Of a stretch of 64,000 nt of DNA, positions 7,073-59,775 are shown one piece after another. The stretch is taken from NCBI GenBank assembly GCA_001599295.1, contig BCGN01000001.1, positions 372,001-436,000 on the forward strand, read 5' to 3'. The translations under genes and the position numbers were made by a program. Below the pieces are notes generated by a model that did not search any database, was not told where the DNA came from, and worked only from the letters and a program-made list of their open reading frames with translations. The stretch is from Sporopachydermia quercuum. Its lineage: Eukaryota. Position 1 is the stretch's first letter. Every line of letters starts with the position of its first letter.

Positions 7073-7230
7073 CTTTTCATATCCTTCAGTCACTGACTAA
7101 TAAATTAAATTGTCTTTGTTACAATTAACGTAAGTTCATTAGCTTCATAATCTTTCCAATTCATTGTTAATCATCCTCCTTTTTTGTTCCTTATCACTTC
7201 ATCAAATGATCTTACCTATTATTTAGACCC

Positions 7231-7253
7231 TTCCTGAAAATTCTAGATCCTTC
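7231..7253. promoter_or_regulatory. Heat-shock element (Hsf1-type site)
   Basis: TTCctGAAaaTTCtaGATccTTC: alternating nTTCn/nGAAn units, three perfect in a row, upstream of the sHSP TATA box. Confidence 0.75.
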
Positions 7254-7854
7254 TTGATTTCATTTGACTTTCAAAAAAGGAGGATCTGGTGACTTCTGTT
7301 TCCAATAAGGCTAAGAAAGTGCTTTCTTATGCATATTTTTTCATACTTAATTATGCATAGTTATGTACTACTACCCAATCTTAACTTAATTTACCAGCTA
7401 TTCTAAAATGATCTTTGCATGTGACTATAGTAATATTTCATAAAAGTCACATTCCCTTCTACTAATTTCATAACACTTCTCTTATACGGCAGAACCCATT
7501 TCATAAATTGATACTAAATATTGGAGAGTTCTATTTCGTTCTATGTTTATTACTTGTCGATAGTCTAGTGAATGAGCACATTGAGTAAAGGGATTACTTG
7601 TATGAAATAGGGGTATCTCGCTAATTTTCTTATTCTATATGCTTCTATGAGTTGAGAGAAGATATTATTGGCACATTTGTCTCTCAGATACCTTAATTTT
7701 CATAGAATTATAGATATTTTGCATTGCGTAGAATTGAATATTATCGCACAATTAACTGCTACCTACCTACCAATGTTATTAGCTCATTAATAAAAGTTGC
7801 CCATAGTTTCAACATAAAGAAAGTTCTAGAGCTATTTCGTTGAGACTTACACTA

Positions 7855-9168: not shown

Positions 9169-10462
9169 TGGTTTGACCCGGTTGTGGAAAGTGATTGGAG
9201 TTTTGTATGTATATTTTAGATATATTATTATTCTTTGAAGAAGTGCATACTGATGAGTAATAGAATAGTCTTACAGAGACACTTATGTGAGCATTCGATA
9301 GTAAATGTAATGTATAAGGCCCGTATTTGTACTGCAATTAAGCCAATCTATGTACACCTTTGATGTTTTGATTATCTTGAGATATAGCATCTAAAATAAA
9401 GAGGTAATAATACTAGATTTTATAATTAATTGATCACAATCGAATAGGATATACCATTGTTTTTCAAAGAGTCCAATTAATGGGAATCCTAAACGTTTCG
9501 CGAGAAGCAAGAAGAAATTAACGTTTAGGAAAACTGGACTTATTCCCAAAATTGGAAGGTGAAATATTTTCGGGCCTGAAACTATAAAGGAGTGATGATT
9601 TTATTTTGATTTAGTAAAGCAATATTTTGTCAAGAACTATTTACTANTACTAATAACGGTTGTATCTGTTAATAATANGTTTGAATCTTATCTATACTAG
9701 ATGGAAATAGAAAGTAACATACGACTTTCCCTTGCTAGTACAATGAATACAATATGCGTATATAGTATTTCTTTTTTTTACTTCTGCAAATAAACTTAAT
9801 TGATGTTTTGCGTTCCTCTCAAACAGATCATTAACATAAAGATAGAGATCAATACAGGATTGAATTTGAATATCCACTCTTTGAAAGTTTCCAATCAACA
9901 TAAAAAAGGATAAAATATAAAATAAAACTAAAATCTTTCTTTTATTTATCGATTTACTTCATATGGTTCGAACATTGATTTTAACACAGTGATTCAAATC
10001 TTTCCTACTCAAACGCACTCCAAGGGTTTATGCATGCAAGTACACATTGTTTTGCATAAACCTTAAGTACTCTAATTATTTTTCTTTTGATCTTTTTCAG
10101 ATTTCATTCCCTTTCACTAAAATTTTCTTAATCATTTGATATGTTTCATTTTCAAAAAAGATTTGATTTCAGTTTCAATAACTAGTATGTTGATTTCAGA
10201 AATCCAACTTAACAAACCATTTGATAGTGGATTTTTGTTTTGTGTTTATTTGTTACAATAGCGAATGGTTTTGATTGTGAAACTGTGTACCAGAAGTTAC
10301 GGCAATAAATGGCACCATAATATCACGCATCATCTACTATCGTCTATTATTCGTTATTTTGGAAAAGAATAGGTACTTTTCAGTTTCTTGGTTAGGTTTA
10401 GCAAGACTATATCAGTTTACAGCTGCTGCTGCTATTTTATTTGATTCCTGGACTCCAGCAGA

Positions 10463-40982: not shown

Positions 40983-43754
40983 ATGTCTGATTATCGGATC
41001 ACCTTATCGAATTTATCATCGGACGAGTATTTCTCATCTTCTAGTGGTATGTGGAAGGACGGGATTGGGGAAATTGTCGGCAATCAGATATCATGAACAA
41101 TAAACAAGAAATGTATTGCTTGATTCCATTACAAGTATTAACTACATTCATGAATAAACAATAGTTGATGATTTGATTCAACAGTTTAAAACTTTGAAAG
41201 TGTTTGGAAGATCACCAGATGTTTGCAAAGGTTATAATGAAGATGTAAGTAGCTGTTAGAATGATAGGATGAACATGGTTTTTTGTCATACAAAGACATA
41301 CTTCATTAAATCCTTCGCTTACATCAGTGAATTACTAACAACCACGATTCAGAAATTAACATCATTATTAACCACAACATACAATGGTATAACCAGATTT
41401 AATAGACAACAGCAAGATGAGATCAAATGTGAGTTGTATTCAATAATAGCAAATGGATTGCTATTGAATAATTCATTATTAAATAAGAACAATAGTAGCA
41501 GCCAGAAAATACCGTGGAAAGAGTTATTACTTATAGCTGGTGAAGAATTCACTCGGTCTTCTGAAGATGATTTGTTTGAATTTCCTCTTACTAGAGTGTT
41601 GTTTTTGTTAAGTTATGTGAAGAGAGAGAAAGAAAGTGATATAAAGGACACTAGGACAACTGACAATCCAAGGAGTAAAAATAGAGTTGAAAGCAAGGAT
41701 TATGGTAAGCAGAGTTATTATGAAAGTGATTCTGTTGATAGGACGTCTGTTGTTGAAGTAAGTGCAGAAGACCAGCTGGAAAGTCGTGACAGTAATGGTA
41801 ATCTTGCTATTAATGGTAGTCCATTCTCTTCTTTAATATCAGACACAGCTGCCGTTCTAAAAAACAAAATTATAAAGTTCAATGACCAGGAGGCGCAGAA
41901 AAACGTTCTTATCGAATATTTGAAACTCGTTGCGAATATGGCTCATGTTTATCCTGCTAGTAGTGAAATATTACAACTGTAAGTATTGAAAGGTATTGTC
42001 TGAGAAATTTGTAAGATGTGGATGTGAATGTGAATGTGAATGTGAATGTGATTGGAATGTAATATGCTTTAATGTAAAAGATAATGATGATTGGTGCTGG
42101 TAGAGTCTTACCATATTTGAGTAAGCTGATGATCTTCTTGAGCATTTGAGTCATCACCTTTTAATGAGCAGGCTTTTTTACATAATTGGTTTATACTAAA
42201 AAAGACGTTTGGGAAGTAGCACTCTCAAATGCAGATGTCAGAAATCAAATCAGAGCAATTGATGTTGTATTTTTCATTTGCAACACTGGAGTTACTGGAA
42301 TTATTGAAAGTATCAGGAGATTCTTTGGCTGGTTCTAACTAAAGACTGGATTATGATTTTGTGGGAGGATGATACCCCCAAAGGATTGTTTAATATTGAT
42401 CATTAGAAAACTTTTCAGAGAAAAGCCTAATGACTATCTAAATTCATTCTTAGTAGTTTTTAGGCTGTCCATGCATTATACTAGCCTCTGATGAATCAGG
42501 CAAGATATTCAAACGTTGATCGTCTTGCTTTTTTAAAAGACGGCTAGACGTGTTCTGAAACCGACTATTGATTGGAAGTCAGAATTACTGAAGAGTGCGC
42601 TGATGCTGATCAAACCCCATCTCATTATAGTAGCATATTATCAATAAAACGTTCTATTGGTAATGAATCGCCAAGTTTACTGATTGGATTCTATTCACTT
42701 ATCTCATGACATGTTGTAGTGTCACCAGTTGCCATTCACATGATATATCATATGCTCTAGTCCTATTAATTCTATTAATCAACCACCACATATTCTAACA
42801 TTCTAACATTTTGATAGCATTATACCAAGGATTATTCAACTATTTGAATCAACAAGCGATCAAAGTGTTAAGCAGTATATACTGAATGCGTTGATCATTC
42901 TACCATTAAGGACTGATCTTTTCTTCTACGATAACAAACAATCATCAGCCACAGAATCCAACATTGAGTATCTTCTATTGTTTATATCCGATCTATTAGA
43001 TGAACTAAATGTCTCTTTGAAGGAGACAGATTCTGCTGTTGTATCTAGGCCTAATTCTAGTGCTAGTGCTATACCTGGCTCCATAATTGAATCACTTGAT
43101 ATAAGAAGCTACTCTATCAAACAATATGATATTTCAATCCTGGCTTTCATACAAAACATTTTAAGATTTGTTAATAAAATCATCAGTTCTGAAGACATAA
43201 ATATCAAAGAAAACAGTCTACTGACTTTGAACACTNAGCCTATTCTGGAGCTAATCAAAACCAAATTCATTCCTAGTGATGATGATAGAAAAGAAGAATT
43301 GGGTATAGGTAATTCATTCCCTAACAGAGTACTGAGAATAGTAAGAATGAATGAGTTAGATGCAAGAGAACTGATTATGAATATATATTATATGCTCTGT
43401 GATAAGAATGGAGATAGGTTAGTTGATATGGTTGGATTTGGATTGAGTTCTTGGTTCATAATCAAGAATAATATTCACTTGGATAGTAAAGAAGGTTTAG
43501 TATATGGTGATCGACAGTCGGATAGTTCGAAAGATCCAAAAGGCTCTATAAACAAAATAACAGGTAAATTAGAAGCATCATCAACAACAGCAGAAAGAAA
43601 TGATGTGTCAAAGGCTTTTGAAGATATGACAGAAGAAGAAAAACAACTCGAAGCAGAACGACTGTTTGTTCTGTTTGAAAGGATTAGACACAATGGTGTG
43701 CTTAAGATAGAAAATCCTTTTGAAGTAGCTAAGAGGCAAGGGAAATTCGATTAA
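40983..43754 (+). CDS. RIC8: Ric8/synembryn G-alpha GEF/chaperone; exons 40983-41046, 41165-41244, 41353-41978, 42818-43754 (568 aa)
   Basis: N-terminal LKVFGRSP, SIIANGLLLN, LTRVLFLLSY, VGFGLSS, INKITG and the hallmark C-terminal MTEEEKQLEAERLFVLFERI..NGVLKIENP. 1707 nt in frame. Confidence 0.85.
42016..42051 (+). repeat. (ATGTGA)n microsatellite in RIC8 intron 3
   Basis: atgtgg followed by five atgtga units. Confidence 0.9.
42061..42639 (+). ncRNA. Candidate structured intronic RNA, family not recognised
   Basis: At least seven local hairpins plus terminal long-range helices inside the 839-nt RIC8 intron (see findings). Confidence 0.4.
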
Positions 43755-49600: not shown

Positions 49601-52600
49601 GCGGGGAAATTGCAATCATTGCAGAAACACACTTACGTAAAGTTAGCGTGGTTCTAGAACTTCTTCAAAAAAGATCAAATGCTTCTCTCTATAAAGCGAA
49701 CGTAGAAAGGAGCAATTTGATTCTCAATGAACTGTTCACTATTCTCAGTGAATCTTTATCACTTGCAGATTCAAACATGCCTGCAGATTTTGTTCAAGAA
49801 ACAGTTATTGCTGCTATGCTATGTATTGTTGAAAATATTGAAGAAAGCACCAATAACTCCTCTTCTGGTACTACTACTGCTCCTCATGTTGATCTATCTA
49901 CAATCAGGATCGATACATTAGTGAGCTTTTTGCGAAGTACTAAAAGCCCTCAGATTCAAAATAGGATTTTATTATTGATATCCAATCTTGCTACATTATC
50001 ACCGTTGATTGTTTTACACAGCGTAATGCCAATTTTCACATTTATGGGCTCCAATACTGTTCGACAAGACGATGAATACTCATTCCATGCTATTGAGCAG
50101 ACTTTATTGAAGGTGATTCCTGCATTAGCACATAGTACCAAGAATGAGAGGGAACAGAATGATGAAATTGAATTCCTATTGTCTAGCTTTACTTCGGCAT
50201 TCGTTCATATTCCTCGTCATAGAAGAGTTCATTTGTTCACTACTCTAGTTAGATCACTAAGTGGTGCTGGTAGTGTAGATGATCCCAATGCTAGTGCTAA
50301 TTTCATTATCAGTAAAGCATTGTTTTTGGTTAGTCAGAAATATTCAGAAGCTTCCCTTAGACATAAACAAATGGAAGTTAGAATGATCATAGACTTTGCA
50401 CAAGCTTTTTTTATTAATTTTTCAATCAAAGACCAATTAGAATCAATTATCAACTATATTGAGTTATGGAAACGATTACCATTTATTACTGGCAACAACG
50501 GCAGCGGTAGTTCCAGCAAATCATCTAATTCTGATTCTGAAGACACTAATAAGTTCCTTCAACGAAGTATTGTTTCTACTAGTGTTATTGGCATGGACTC
50601 GAACAGTTTAATCAACCTCAAGTGCTACATGCTGCAATTTCTGAACCAAATCATCTCTGGCACTCCTGACGATCCTTCCTATGCCTCGGTTTCATCTGCA
50701 GTCGGTACCAACACTTCTTTCAATAGCTATAAATCTCTCCGATTCAGAATAGCAAAGGTATTTGCTGAAGACAACGGAATCGAAAGTGCAACTGTCATAG
50801 AACAATTTCAAAATGTATTCAACTCGCTGTTGTCTCTGATTAATGATGAGCCGTTGGAGGATAAGCAAATGCAAAAGGATTACCAGAAATACCTCTTTGA
50901 CTTATTCGCCACAGTACTCAACTTATTGCCATTTGCAGAGTTTGTCGAATCCATTAAAGGCCTGATCTCAGTCGAAAACCAAGAAACAAGCCAAGTACTT
51001 AGAAGGCAAGCAATCCTGTTGTTGAAGAATAAAATCTCCTTGGAGTTGGTGGATAGTGCTAATGGATTGGCTTCCGCTGTTGAAGCTGTAAGCGTTTTAC
51101 TGAGCATAGTAGAAAAAAGTGTTGATGCCAACATTGAGAACACTCCGGATAACGAATCCATGGACGTCATAGTTGTACAAGTATCGATAGAGACATTAGA
51201 TCTTATTGTGAACAAGTTCAGTCATAACTTAAATGATAAATTAGTTATTAAGATACTCAATTTACTTACAAGAGACGTTGGCCTTAAAAATCAACATCCA
51301 GAAATCATTATTGCTTCTATTTCATGTATTACAACAGTTATACAACTTATGGGTGTCAAAATCATCGCATTTTTCCCCAAGATCGTACCTATTGGTTTCC
51401 AAATCTTTAACCGTGTTATTAACTCAGAAAAATCATCCGAAGCTATTCAGTTGTCTTTATTTGCTTTGATTGGTTGTTGCATCAAACGTATTCCACAATT
51501 TTTGGTCTCCTCTTTGAGCGAAATCTTGTTCATGGTGTATAAAGGAACCTGTTTCAAAGCTGTGAAAATTCAAATTCTTAACGAATTGGTAGAACATAGT
51601 GAACTCAAGAGTTTATACAGTGCAGGAAGTAAATCATGGGATTATATTGTCGCTAGAATGAATGAAGCTAGAGAAAAAGGATTGAGTAGTGTAGATGTCA
51701 ANCAAGTGTCGAACATCATTGAGTTGAACCATTACGTTATGAGTCAATGTGTTGAAAAGAGTGATAAACGACTTGTGATTGAACAGTCTTCATTGTTGAT
51801 GAGATATTTACTTCGCACATTTGAAATCCGAAGCATTGGAATATTCAATTTCAATATCACCAATAGTTTGGAATCTGAGTTCATTAAATTGGGTATTGCT
51901 ATAGTGTTGAAATTGAACGACAAGACTTTTAGACCTTTGTTTGCAGGAATTGTCAGATGGGCTATTGAAGAAGGCAGCTCAGACAAGAAGAAGTTGATTT
52001 CATTTTTCAAATTCCTGACAAAACTACAAGACAGATTAAAGAGTATTATCACGAACTATTATACTTATTTGTTTGATTTTGTAGTAGATCAGTTGAACAA
52101 ATATGAGGAGCAAGAAAAAGAACTAGAAGGTGATGAATTATTGCTCAAGAAACTAATTTATACATCCCTTAAGCTTGGATTTACCTATGATCAAGAACAA
52201 TACTGGCAGTCAGCGACAAGATTCGATGCCATAAGCGTTGCATTGCTTAATCAATTGCCAACCGTTGAAATGGTTATTGGCAAGCAGTTGATCAAAGCAG
52301 TTGTATCTCTCATTGAAATCATCGCCAATAATGATGATCAACAGAATATCAAAAAGATTGACCAAATATTACTTTCACATTTGAAATACACTTGTGGAAG
52401 CACTGAGATCTTATTGACAGTGAAGATCTTCAAGGTTGTTTACAAGACATTTGCTGATCATTGGTTGAATTTGTTGCCTCAATTGATTCCAGTATTAACA
52501 GAATTGTTGGAAACCGATAATGAAATCATCGAGCTTGAGTTGAAGAATGGGCTGATTCCTGTCATTGAGAAGAATTTGGGCGAGTCTATTGAGAAATACA

Positions 52601-57315: not shown

Positions 57316-59775
57316 ATGATGACTATGGCTATTAGACGTATCCCCACAGCTGGTGCTAGTGGTAGAAGTTGTATTAAGAACAGATGTGGATTGTGGCTCA
57401 ACCCCTCAAAGAGCTTTTTGGTTCCTATTAGGAAAGTGTGGCTAAGATCACTAGTGACAAGTCCCGCCCCTATTCAATCTGGCACCATTTCTAGCGGGAT
57501 AATTTCCTATTTGAAGAAAAGAGGGCTGGTATCTATGGTGACAAGGTATGTTTATTGTTCTTGCTTGTGGGTTGGAATTGCTTTTTAAGATCTATTTGTT
57601 TACACTTGTTGACTTATTTCAGTAACTGCTAAACCAAATAACGTTTGTTTTCATTTTTTCAGCCAGCTTTTCACTCGAAACTGACCAGTTTAGCCCATCA
57701 CTTGAATCGGAATTAGGTAAAAAGCCCTTGACTATTTATTGTGGCGCAGACCCTACGGCGAAATCCTTACATGTGGGAAACTTATTACCTCTCCTTGTGC
57801 TTTTGCATTTATACATCCGAGGCCACAATATCGTCGGCTTGGTTGGCGGGGCAACGGGCGAAGTCGGAGATCCTTCGGGGCGTTCCACGGAACGTGATCC
57901 GATGAATGTTTCCACAAAGGATACAAATGTGACTAGAATCGAAGCCCAAATGAAGAAATTTTTCACCAATGGGGTAGCTTATGCCAAAAGTAGAAATTAT
58001 CCAATATCAGAAAATGAGATTATTCCCGGAAAGTTCCAAACTAAGAACAACTATGATTGGTGGAAGAACGTCGGAATGCTATCATTTCTTGCTAAATATG
58101 GAAGGTTTATCAGAATAGGGCAAATGCTAGCTCGCGATTCTGTAAAAGGAAGGCTAGAATCCGAATCAGGATTAGGATTTAACGAATTCACTTATCAAAT
58201 ACTTCAAGCATACGATTTTTATCACATGTATCTCCATGACGAAGTTCGGGTGCAAGTGGGAGGTAGTGATCAATGGGGTAATATCACTGCCGGGATCGAC
58301 TTCATTGCTAAATTATTGGAAGCCTCTAAGGTTAGCGGTAATGAAGAAAGCGGGGTATTTTCAAAGACTTCGAAAGATGCGGAAGCCTTTGGATTGACCG
58401 TTCCATTATTGGTCAATTCCAATGGAGAGAAGTTTGGCAAAAGTATGGGAAATGCAGTATTTATTGATCCCGAGGTTACTCCTCCTTTTAGTTTGTATCA
58501 AGTATGTTCGCTTTTGGATCGTAATAAGCGGAGATGATGACTAATGGAGTAATGAGGTTAGGACTTGATTGAGAATGGGAACTTTTCGGACTTTGCTCAA
58601 TAAGGAAATCTGAATCGGGGAAGGATAATAACAAAAAAAGACCAGATTCCCTTCTGGGTCAAGCCATCTCGGNTACTCATTTCACGAACCTCGGATTATT
58701 GTAATTTCGGGAGTTTCGTTAATTACAATCTAGAATCCAACATCGATTAACTCATTTATTTTGGGTTTTTAGCCTCTCTTTCCGTTATTGCATCTTTTGT
58801 ATTTATTTAAACTTTTTATCATTCTCTTACTAACGTTATTGTTTATCTTAAGTTTTTTATTCGATCATCCGATGCCGATGTCGGAAAATACCTCAAAATC
58901 TTCACATTTCTCCCATTAGAGGAAATAAATAGAATTTTGGAAAACCACAAAAAGAACCCCGAAGCTCGGATTGCACAAAAGGTATTGGCCAATGAGTTCT
59001 GTGACCTACTTTATGGCTTAGGAGTTGGTAATAATTTGTCTATCGTTTCCGAAGTTTTATACGGAAATTATAACGGAACCTCTTCTGTTACTAGCGATCA
59101 GATTATTGAGGCTTTTCGGAAAGAGAATTTATTGAAAGAGATAAAACTTAACAGCCTAAACGGGAAAAAATGGAGTGATGTTTTAGTTAAGGTCTTGGGT
59201 GTGTCAAGATGTATGTATTTGTCTTTTGTGGATTGTAGCAGAGTTTGCCGAGATGCCTGGGGTGGTAATTCAGAAGGAATAAGAAAATATCGGAAGTGAT
59301 TTGTTTAGGTATGAGAGTAAAAGAATAGCTTCGGGGATTATTCAAGAAGAGGCCTAGTCTCGAATAATGACTGATTGCAGTAGACTAATTGGGTGTTCTG
59401 CCTAAACGGAGAATTGAAAGTTGTGAGGCCTATTCCTTCCTTATTATTATCTTTACCGATGTTCCTCCGAAGCTCCTCCGAAGCTCCTCAATATGTTAAT
59501 TCCCNTTCTTATCATTTCCGTTATCATTCTTTGTTCTGACATCTTTTCCACTATTGTGAAATCCTCATTATTTATCATTTGGGTTACTAACAGTAATCCA
59601 AATAGCGGAAGCCAAGAGATTATTAAAAGCTGGCTCAATTTATTCCGGCTTGCAGAGGAATAAGATTATCGACACTTCCGATTCCCTGATTTTCGAAAAT
59701 GATTACCTAGTCGACGATAGATTATTATTACTGAGAGTTGGTAAGAAGAGGTATGAAATTGTTTCCGTTCTATAA
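57316..59775 (+). CDS. MSY1: Mitochondrial tyrosyl-tRNA synthetase; exons 57316-57545, 57667-58501, 58853-59210, 59606-59775 (530 aa)
   Basis: Presequence, YCGADPTAKSLHVGN (HIGH motif), FNEFTYQILQAYDF, QVGGSDQWGNITAG, GEKFGKS (KMSKS motif) and a terminal LLLRVGK. 1593 nt in frame. Confidence 0.9.

What the first reader, a model, noticed from the sequence alone, without database searches (positions are those of the whole stretch)
42061..42639. ~580-nt multi-hairpin element hidden in the oversized RIC8 intron: candidate unrecognised intronic ncRNA
Seen: intron 3 (41979-42817) is 839 nt, while most introns here are about 75-220 nt. Its ends pair: aatatgct (42061) with agcatatt (42632), and ataatga (42081) with tcattat (42622). 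Inside is a row of hairpins: gcatttgag 42142/ctcaaatgc 42224 enclosing cttttttA/Taaaaaag; tgttgta/tgcaaca (42263-42285); tctttgg/ctaaaga (42322-42345); a tggga-gg/cc-ccca stem near 42362-42380; agcctaa-acta-ctaa/ttag-tagt-ttaggct (42424-42466); ctagcc-tct..gcaaga/tcttgc..aga-ggctag (42481-42547); and ttctga/tcagaa (42553-42584). G-U pairs favour the sense strand. There is a C-box-like ATGATGA at 42084, D-box-like CTGA at 42600 and 42606, and an Sm-like ATTTTGTGG near 42356. Established: yeast introns can host snoRNAs. I found no hallmark motifs of U1/U2/U5/U6, snR30, RNase P/MRP or SRP RNA. Inference: a large atypical snoRNA, a new structured RNA, or a cis-regulator of RIC8 splicing.
Basis: partly seen in the sequence, partly recalled or inferred. 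Interest (0 to 1): 0.75.

Follow-up and report, generated by a model that had tools for sequence, protein, structure and literature searches.

The report
Probable uncatalogued snoRNA in yeast intron
An unusually long intron of a budding-yeast RIC8 gene probably carries an ordinary-sized but uncatalogued guide RNA (box C/D snoRNA), followed by a very stable 220-base RNA fold of unknown role; no related genomes or RNA reads were available to prove either.

Summary
The element is not one evenly folded 580-nt RNA. Only 42396-42613 folds beyond chance: a four-way junction with z -6.9 on the sense strand; the window over it ranks first of 3190. The 5' half folds no better than shuffles (z +0.7). Instead it holds four snoRNA boxes in canonical order (C 42084, D' 42117, C' 42126, D-like AUGA 42164), a 10-bp flanking stem and a guide matching fungal 25S rRNA at a site not in the Neurospora list; 4 of 20000 shuffles match this (thresholds set afterwards). 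Best reading (about 0.42): a ~90-nt intronic box C/D snoRNA plus a separate downstream fold. Rivals: splicing-aid structure only (0.27); one ~535-nt C/D RNA ending at CUGA 42606 (0.18). Rfam has no match. U1-U6, MRP, RNase P, SRP, snR30, snR190 and U14 lie elsewhere in the genome, and there is no telomerase template. No relatives, RNA reads or own rRNA were available, so conservation, expression and target are unproven. The scan had not noted this on other DNA.

The parts
41353..41978 (+). RIC8 exon 3 (upstream of the long intron)
   Evidence: open frame ending at the GTAAGT donor; no Ric8 Pfam match on this exon alone
41979..42817 (+). RIC8 intron 3, 839 nt; branch motifs TCTAAC at 42794 and 42802
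   Evidence: splice motifs and frame continuity
42020..42055 (+). 5' arm of zipper-like stems (TGTGAA repeat) pairing with 42725-42763
   Evidence: helices p 0.38-0.97 in the whole-intron fold
42059..42068 (+). 5' arm of outer 10-bp stem (partner 42632-42641)
   Evidence: p 0.95 when 42050-42650 is folded; absent from the whole-intron fold
42072..42081 (+). 5' arm of the candidate snoRNA terminal stem (partner 42174-42183)
   Evidence: 10 bp, -8.6 kcal/mol; competes with a local hairpin
42084..42090 (+). box C (ATGATGA, perfect)
   Evidence: sequence
42092..42106 (+). candidate extra base-pairing element to 25S rRNA just upstream of the guide site
   Evidence: -17.9, -18.4 and -13.2 kcal/mol with three fungal LSU rRNAs; 38 of 3000 random 26-mers and 111 of 3000 shuffles as good
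42117..42120 (+). candidate box D' (TTGA)
   Evidence: motif order and spacing
42126..42132 (+). candidate box C' (CTGATGA)
   Evidence: same C' sequence and similar spacing as this genome's snR190
42148..42162 (+). candidate methylation guide: 8 Watson-Crick pairs, one U-U, then up to 6 more pairs with LSU rRNA (L078/L079 positions 1196-1210)
   Evidence: anchored score 13.5, 13 and 12 of 15 in three of four fungal LSU sets, none in the fourth
42164..42167 (+). candidate terminal box D (ATGA variant)
   Evidence: position after the guide; A-for-C variant reported in about 4% of fungal D boxes (PMC5824354)
42290..42340 (+). imperfect hairpin capped by an AGGA tetraloop (42315-18), possible Rnt1 site between the two units
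   Evidence: fold (helix p 0.5-0.7); Rnt1 role inferred
   Evidence: p 0.81-0.95
42396..42613 (+). four-way-junction domain: closing helices 42396-406/42600-613 and 42410-18/42588-96 around hairpins 42424-66, 42481-547 and 42552-85
   Evidence: z -6.9 against 200 shuffles; the window starting at 42376 ranks first of 3190
42600..42609 (+). two CUGA motifs (42600, 42606), terminal D box in the long-RNA reading
   Evidence: sequence; paired in the junction's closing helices at p 0.74-0.92
42818..43751 (+). RIC8 exon 4
   Evidence: Pfam Ric8 E 1.6e-38

Best explanation
The intron hosts an ordinary-sized (about 42079-42172, ~90 nt) box C/D snoRNA that no Rfam family covers. Shown: the four box-like motifs in order, a possible 10-bp flanking stem, and complementarity to fungal 25S rRNA next to the last box. 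Inferred: after RIC8 splicing the lariat is debranched and trimmed to the protein-bound C/D motif. The guide 42148-62, helped by a second element at 42092-42106, would position Nop1 on an adenosine at LSU position 1199 of the surrogate rRNAs. That base is 72 nt 3' of the A I recall as the snR61 site. The downstream 220-nt four-way junction is a separate RNA-level structure under selection. It is either a second intron passenger released at the AGGA-capped hairpin, or a fold that compacts the intron together with the zipper-like stems. Its role is not explained by any test here.
For: The 5' half is unstructured (z +0.7), as guide regions usually are. C-D'-C' spacing is 26 and 5 nt, like this genome's snR190 (23 and 7 nt, same C' sequence); this strict motif occurs in 147 of 20000 intron shuffles. 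C plus a D-like box 55-135 nt on, an inner D'/C' pair, a flanking stem of -8.6 or better and a guide score of 12 or more occur together in 4 of 20000 shuffles. The guide score is reached by 78, 336 and 1811 of 126721 window 16-mers for the three rRNA sets that match. The extra pairing lies directly beside the guide site, as described for yeast C/D snoRNAs with short guides (PMC3116282 passages). Of 19 genomic matches to the guide-plus-box pattern, only this one has a C box upstream. Length fits the fungal median of 93 nt (PMC5824354 section). 8 of 12 sub-threshold Rfam matches on 42065-42190 are C/D snoRNA models, 7 of them on the + strand.
Against: No homologue, covariation or RNA evidence exists here. 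The organism's own rDNA is not assembled, so the target was tested on rRNA of other fungi; one of four sets (L072) breaks the guide. The contiguous core is only 8 bp followed by a U-U mismatch. Ten candidate boxes were scored and all thresholds were set after seeing the data. The terminal box is AUGA, not CUGA, so the usual G-C pair with box C is missing. In the folding model the C box pairs with the guide region (p about 0.7). Freeing boxes C, C', D and the guide costs 10.8 kcal/mol, and the proposed terminal stem loses to a local hairpin. The positive controls (snR190, U14) found no target because the surrogate rRNA set is incomplete. The Neurospora table lists no 26S site between 1114 and 1418 (PMC2780460), so the site has no precedent there.
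Confidence: 0.42

Rival explanations
1. No small RNA gene. [quoted passage not shown] The boxes are chance products of a TGA-rich sequence.
For: The whole-intron fold gives long-range helices of p 0.95-0.97 and a shortest path of 27 steps from donor to branch point. Including the weak outermost helix (p 0.38), the linker totals about 76 nt, inside the 42-85 nt zipper definition. Zipper stems were found in 32 of 88 S. cerevisiae introns, and multiway junctions occur there (PMC12350175 passages). A C box with a CUGA downstream arises in 1071 of 3000 shuffles.
Against: It does not explain four ordered boxes plus a guide next to the last one (4 of 20000). The z -6.9 domain lies far inside the loop and does not itself shorten the donor-branch distance. 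The whole intron has only z -2.2 (15 shuffles).
Confidence: 0.27
2. One ~535-nt box C/D RNA (42079-42612) closed by box C 42084 and CUGA 42606 under the outer stem, with the junction as a giant insertion. It could be a tandem C/D RNA like vertebrate SCARNA9, whose 3' CUGA (42600) follows a 9-bp match to U2 stem-loop IV.
For: Canonical CUGA. The outer duplex is 10+5+4 bp, -14.4 kcal/mol, and runs to one base before box C. Strict C-D'-C' plus this stem occurs in 11 of 20000 shuffles. U2 match at 42591-99. Leaving C and D unpaired costs 7.4 kcal/mol.
Against: The stem alone is weak evidence (117 of 2000 shuffles by energy; 35 of 3000 by length) and it vanishes in the whole-intron fold. Both CUGA motifs and the U2-matching bases are paired in the junction's closing helices (p 0.74-0.92). 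The longest fungal C/D family in the survey is 200-300 nt (PMC5824354). The U2 match ranks only mid-table among chance duplexes.
Confidence: 0.18
3. The 3' domain (about 42345-42615) is an independent RNA of another or unknown class (for example a large H/ACA RNA), and the 5' boxes are chance.
For: It is more stable against shuffles than all ten known RNAs of this genome tested (z -3.1 to +1.0) and is strand-asymmetric. An AGNN-capped hairpin lies just upstream, where Rnt1 cuts 12-18 nt from such loops (PMC5934358 passages).
Against: No convincing H or ACA box by inspection, and no strong pseudouridylation pocket among 12 scanned. No hammerhead geometry, no telomere template, no Rfam match, no paralogue by BLAST. 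The domain's ends were chosen after seeing the fold, which inflates z.
Confidence: 0.1

Closest known systems
Intron-encoded fungal box C/D methylation-guide snoRNAs (N. crassa set, PMC2780460; fungal snoRNAome, PMC5824354)
   Same: Intronic location, four boxes in order, about 90 nt, antisense element before the last box.
   Different: No Rfam family match; AUGA terminal box; only 8 contiguous pairs; predicted LSU site not in the N. crassa table; a large structured domain follows in the same intron.
Yeast C/D snoRNAs with short guides and extra base-pairing (snR70, snR13, snR87, snR61; PMC3116282)
   Same: Short guide with a second element complementary to rRNA next to the target.
   Different: Different target; conservation of the extra element, which is what defines it in that paper, could not be tested.
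snR190 of the same genome (G000:C12, locus L091)
   Same: C, D' and C' spacing and C' sequence CTGATGA; long segment between C' and D.
   Different: snR190 is about 136 nt with a canonical CUGA and is a separate locus.
Vertebrate tandem C/D scaRNA SCARNA9 (labelled tandem C/D in PMC6938241; size and U2 targets recalled)
   Same: Model for the long reading: two C/D units in one intronic RNA, possible U2 target.
   Different: No second good C box free of structure; U2 match weak and buried; not reported from yeasts in the papers read.
Zipper-stem and structured long introns of S. cerevisiae (PMC12350175; PMC4937481)
   Same: Long-range stems near both splice signals; multiway junction inside.
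   Different: Host is not a ribosomal-protein gene; box motifs and a guide are present as well.
snR4 / snR45 acetylation guides (PMC5464676)
   Same: Atypical C/D RNAs with large variable helical regions; an 8-nt GS2-like word occurs at 42151.
   Different: No GS1 upstream of box C; the GS2-like word is expected by chance; the variable region lies between D' and C' there, not after C'.

Membership tests
Box C/D methylation-guide snoRNA (short reading) | Box C RUGAUGA near the 5' end | tested here: met
   ATGATGA at 42084
Box C/D methylation-guide snoRNA (short reading) | Box D CUGA near the 3' end | tested here: inconclusive
   ATGA at 42164, a minority variant (PMC5824354); nearest CUGA after C' is at 42488
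Box C/D methylation-guide snoRNA (short reading) | Internal D'/C' motif | tested here: met
   TTGA 42117, CTGATGA 42126; 147 of 20000 shuffles
Box C/D methylation-guide snoRNA (short reading) | 10-21 nt antisense element ending next to D or D' | tested here: inconclusive
   8 contiguous pairs, a mismatch, then up to 6 more, in 3 of 4 surrogate rRNA sets; own rRNA absent
Box C/D methylation-guide snoRNA (short reading) | Terminal or external stem | tested here: inconclusive
   10 bp possible but not in the minimum-energy fold
Box C/D methylation-guide snoRNA (short reading) | Stable RNA bound by Nop1/Nop56/Nop58/Snu13; target methylated | not testable with these tools
   needs RNA data and experiments
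Any Rfam 15 family | Score at or above gathering threshold | tested here: not met
   0 matches in the window; best 21.3 bits against a cut-off of 37
U1, U2, U3, U4, U5, U6, RNase MRP, RNase P, SRP, snR30, snR190, U14 | This locus is the genome's copy | tested here: not met
   each found elsewhere in G000; U1, snR30 and snR190 scored below Rfam cut-off but show their hallmark motifs by inspection; U14 recognised by inspection only
Telomerase RNA | Template of more than one repeat complementary to the telomere G strand | tested here: not met
   repeat is 11 nt; longest exact match in the intron is 7 nt, on the G strand; one 10-of-11 match on the minus strand at 42219
snR4 / snR45 (U13-type) | GS1 upstream of box C and GS2 in a loop after C' | tested here: not met
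   no GS1 upstream of 42084; no snR45 GS1 or GS2; only a degenerate snR4 GS2-like 8-mer. Neither RNA was located elsewhere: Rfam snR45 best E 0.69; 50 of 69 GS1-pattern matches examined, none convincing
Box H/ACA snoRNA | Hairpin-H-hairpin-ACA with a bipartite pocket | tested here: not met
   no ACA after the domain (sequence); 12 pockets scanned, none with a convincing target
SNORD97-type tRNA-Met guide | Anticodon-arm antisense element directly before a D box | tested here: not met
   a 14-bp match to tRNA-Met lies in the T/acceptor arm inside a hairpin; random 36-mers do better; definition from PMC6601510 passages
Hammerhead ribozyme | CUGANGA, stem II, GAAA, with stems I and III | tested here: not met
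   three cores on the + strand; at most a 3-bp stem II to a distant GAAA; stems I and III checked by eye only
Zipper stem (PMC12350175 definition) | [quoted passage not shown] | tested here: inconclusive
   strong helices give a linker of about 94-118 nt; about 76 nt only with the 4-bp outermost helix of p 0.38

The most novel reading that the evidence does not exclude
The intron encodes a single ~535-nt tandem box C/D RNA, about twice the longest fungal C/D family surveyed. Its 5' unit guides a new 25S methylation, a 220-nt four-way junction serves as a protein platform, and a 3' CUGA unit targets U2 stem-loop IV. That would be a yeast counterpart of the long vertebrate tandem scaRNAs, possibly cut into two RNAs at an internal AGNN hairpin.
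Probability: 0.17. Interest if true: 0.75.

Novelty: new member of a known kind. Interest (0 to 1): 0.45.

Why it matters
If the short reading holds, it adds an uncatalogued, lineage-specific guide and a predicted new rRNA methylation site in an early-branching budding yeast: useful but modest. The 220-nt junction is the stranger part. It is more stable against shuffles than any housekeeping RNA tested from this genome, favours the transcribed strand and matches no family. If it is part of the snoRNA or a second intron-borne RNA, it would be a new architecture for yeast non-coding RNAs and is cheap to test by northern blot.

Tried and rejected
Expression: no RNA holder was listed, so no reads were laid; this is no evidence either way. 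Relatives: none held for this genome. Ric8 homologues reach only 24-43% identity, and the closest named Arp4 homologues are about 41% (Sugiyamaella, Nadsonia), so no orthologous intron could be aligned. One metagenome scan with a 21-nt piece of the 3' end gave 1 match, a GC-rich contig with no further similarity. A covariance model of the domain was built from the single sequence but never searched, so remote paralogues are untested. rRNA from viral contigs gave only short or divergent pieces; plasmids gave none. The surrogate set therefore lacks most of 18S 80-566 and has only divergent or degenerate cover of the 3' third of 25S. Rejected targets: 18S 13-bp match at 42121-33 (overlaps box C', not next to a D box); tRNA-Met bipartite match (wrong order, not better than random); U3 hinge and U6 matches (short). 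The SNORD94 resemblance after box C (E 0.045) gives no usable U6 guide by inspection. Three short collinear matches to the degenerate rRNA region on C2 are chance (score 48, shuffles 39 +/- 4, maximum 53). Coding: longest stop-free frame 60 codons. RF01274 was searched by mistake for snR4; it is an archaeal family. Literature: a search for RIC8 + intron + snoRNA + fungi listed 1 paper, unrelated by title and abstract start; 'ric8' has 0 occurrences in PMC8216456; searches listed nothing on this element. The supplement of PMC5824354, which lists fungal snoRNA families and targets, could not be read and may hold a family with this guide.
Full report
Setting. The window lies on contig C1 of a 16.4-Mb, 15-contig eukaryotic assembly. 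Its closest named Arp4 homologues are from early-branching budding yeasts at about 41% identity. The host gene is RIC8: the last exon matches Pfam Ric8 at E 1.6e-38, and donor, branch and acceptor motifs with frame continuity define intron 3 as 41979-42817. The element is single-copy by BLAST. No Rfam family reaches threshold in the window; sub-threshold matches are mostly C/D snoRNA models. Earlier notes of this scan hold nothing similar or nearby.

Observation. All 15 quoted strings checked are at the stated places. The 579-nt element folds at z -2.76 on the sense strand and -1.66 on the antisense strand. Sliding 120-nt windows put the signal at 42350-42620 (z -1.9 to -4.9), with nothing below -1.4 on the sense strand upstream. 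By halves, 42079-42345 gives z +0.70 and 42345-42620 gives z -6.5 (0 of 60 shuffles as stable). The core 42396-42613 is a four-way junction: three hairpins closed by helices of 9, 4 and 6-7 bp. It scores z -6.9 sense and -2.6 antisense, with 8 G-U pairs on the sense strand and 2 on the other, which points to selection on RNA rather than a DNA palindrome. The window starting at 42376 is the best of 3190 220-nt windows in a regression-based scan. Ten known RNAs of this genome score -3.1 to +1.0. The domain's ends were chosen after seeing the fold, so its z is somewhat inflated.

What it is not. U6, U2, U3, MRP, RNase P, U1, snR30, SRP, U4, snR190 with U14, and U5 were each found at other places in the genome (with 71, 74). 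The telomere unit is 11 nt. The intron has no exact match longer than 7 nt and one 10-of-11 match on the minus strand, so it is not telomerase RNA. snR4/snR45 guide 1 is missing, though I could not locate those RNAs elsewhere (50 of 69 pattern matches examined). H/ACA pockets (12 scanned), hammerhead geometry and a tRNA-Met guide were tested and not met.

The four-box unit. The unstructured 5' half carries box C (42084), a D' candidate (TTGA, 42117) and a C' (CTGATGA, 42126) spaced 26 and 5 nt. This genome's snR190 has the same C' and spacings of 23 and 7 nt. The strict motif appears in 147 of 20000 intron shuffles, twice in the 64-kb window (the other inside an open frame) and 12 times, with redundancy, in 379 kb of fetched loci. 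An ATGA at 42164 closes a unit of about 90 nt, the median length of fungal C/D snoRNAs, and an A at the first position is the usual D-box variant (4.2% substituted; PMC5824354, sections read). A 10-bp stem can form 2 nt before C and 6 nt after this box. The genome's rDNA is not assembled, so I used fungal rRNA found as contaminant contigs in prokaryote assemblies. Of ten candidate boxes, 42164 had the best anchored guide: 8 Watson-Crick pairs, a U-U, then up to 6 more pairs. It scored 13.5, 13 and 12 of 15 in three rRNA sets, reached by 78, 336 and 1811 of 126721 window 16-mers; the fourth set has a substitution in the core and gives no match. Bases 42092-42106 pair with the rRNA just upstream of that site (-17.9 kcal/mol; 38 of 3000 random segments, 111 of 3000 shuffles, and 22 of 661 rRNA sites as good). 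This resembles the extra base-pairing described for short-guide yeast snoRNAs (PMC3116282, passages). Boxes, inner motif, stem and guide together occur in 4 of 20000 shuffles. Only 1 of 19 genomic matches to the guide pattern has a C box upstream, this one. By the D+5 rule the target is LSU position 1199 of the surrogates, 72 nt 3' of the A that I recall as the snR61 site. The Neurospora table has no site between 1114 and 1418 (PMC2780460, section 3 part 1).

Against this reading. Thresholds were set after the fact and many targets were tried. The core is short and the terminal box non-canonical. The folding model pairs box C with the guide region; opening boxes and guide costs 10.8 kcal/mol, and the terminal stem loses to a local hairpin. 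The controls snR190 and U14 found no target in the incomplete rRNA set. There is no homologue and no expression evidence.

Long reading. Box C with CUGA 42606 and the outer duplex (-14.4 kcal/mol) gives a ~535-nt RNA. With the strict inner motif this occurs in 11 of 20000 shuffles, but the stem alone in 117 of 2000. CUGA 42600 follows a 9-bp match to U2 stem-loop IV, which is weak and buried in the junction's closing helix. The longest C/D family in the fungal survey is 200-300 nt. SCARNA9 is labelled tandem C/D in PMC6938241 (passages); its size and targets are recalled. The two readings share most evidence and differ in where the 3' end lies.

Cis reading. Zipper stems were found in 32 of 88 S. 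cerevisiae introns, and multiway junctions occur (PMC12350175, passages); intronic structures act in cis at GLC7 (PMC4937481, passages). The stems here meet the zipper definition only marginally. Notes by earlier agents on this genome report other long self-pairing introns and intron-hosted snoRNAs (unchecked), which fits both readings.

Mechanism, shown versus inferred. Shown: intron, motifs, predicted folds, complementarity to surrogate rRNA. Inferred from established pathways: release by splicing, debranching and trimming; C/D protein assembly; Nop1 methylation; possible Rnt1 cutting 12-18 nt from the AGGA loop at 42315-18 (rule from PMC5934358, passages). The function of the junction is unexplained; a compaction or protein-binding role in the pre-mRNA and a second passenger RNA are about equally open.

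Other papers seen. Passages only: PMC8216456, PMC5464676 (plus figure text of supplements 2 and 3, whose alignments were images), PMC10484740, PMC6601510, PMC12848939, PMC9226516. Searches listed no paper on an RNA in a RIC8 intron; the library lacks most subscription journals, and the supplement of PMC5824354 was unavailable.

Verdict. A real and partly mis-drawn feature: most likely a new member of a known class beside an unexplained, very stable fold. Interest 0.45; the long tandem reading has probability about 0.17 and would merit 0.75.

Noticed in passing
window 42121, 42334, 42404-42406: Internal splice-like signals: GTAAGC, a TCTAAC branch motif identical to the real one, and a TAG 65 nt later behind the 42353-89 hairpin. 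A nested intron or alternative acceptor is possible, but such motifs are expected by chance in 800 nt.
   Followed up: partly
G000:C2 about 51,400-52,100 (L081, L002): Degenerate fragment of large-subunit rRNA in a nuclear contig; no intact rDNA was found in the assembly.
   Followed up: partly
L091 (G000:C12 about 140,400-140,850): snR190 and U14 homologues in tandem, separated by branch, acceptor and donor motifs, so apparently in separate introns; both below Rfam thresholds.
   Followed up: partly
L194 (G000:C4 about 1,327,925-1,327,996, minus strand): Compact box C ... CUGA ... CUGA arrangement that looks like another short C/D snoRNA.
   Followed up: no
L098, L104, L099, L106, L062 (C5:239,691; C6:1,259,820; C5:1,145,053; C7:695,409; C3:207,387): Interstitial telomere-repeat matches of 24, 20, 19, 18 and 17 nt; candidates for the telomerase template or for repeat-binding-protein sites.
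   Followed up: no
window 7096-7395 (+) and 9336-9595 (-): Other strongly folding stretches in the window scans.
   Followed up: no
window 58257-58267: Exact 11-nt telomere repeat inside an open frame.
   Followed up: no
L067-L079: Thirteen contigs in bacterial genome assemblies carry a fungal rRNA primer site; nine were scanned and all nine are eukaryotic rDNA, i.e. contamination.
   Followed up: partly
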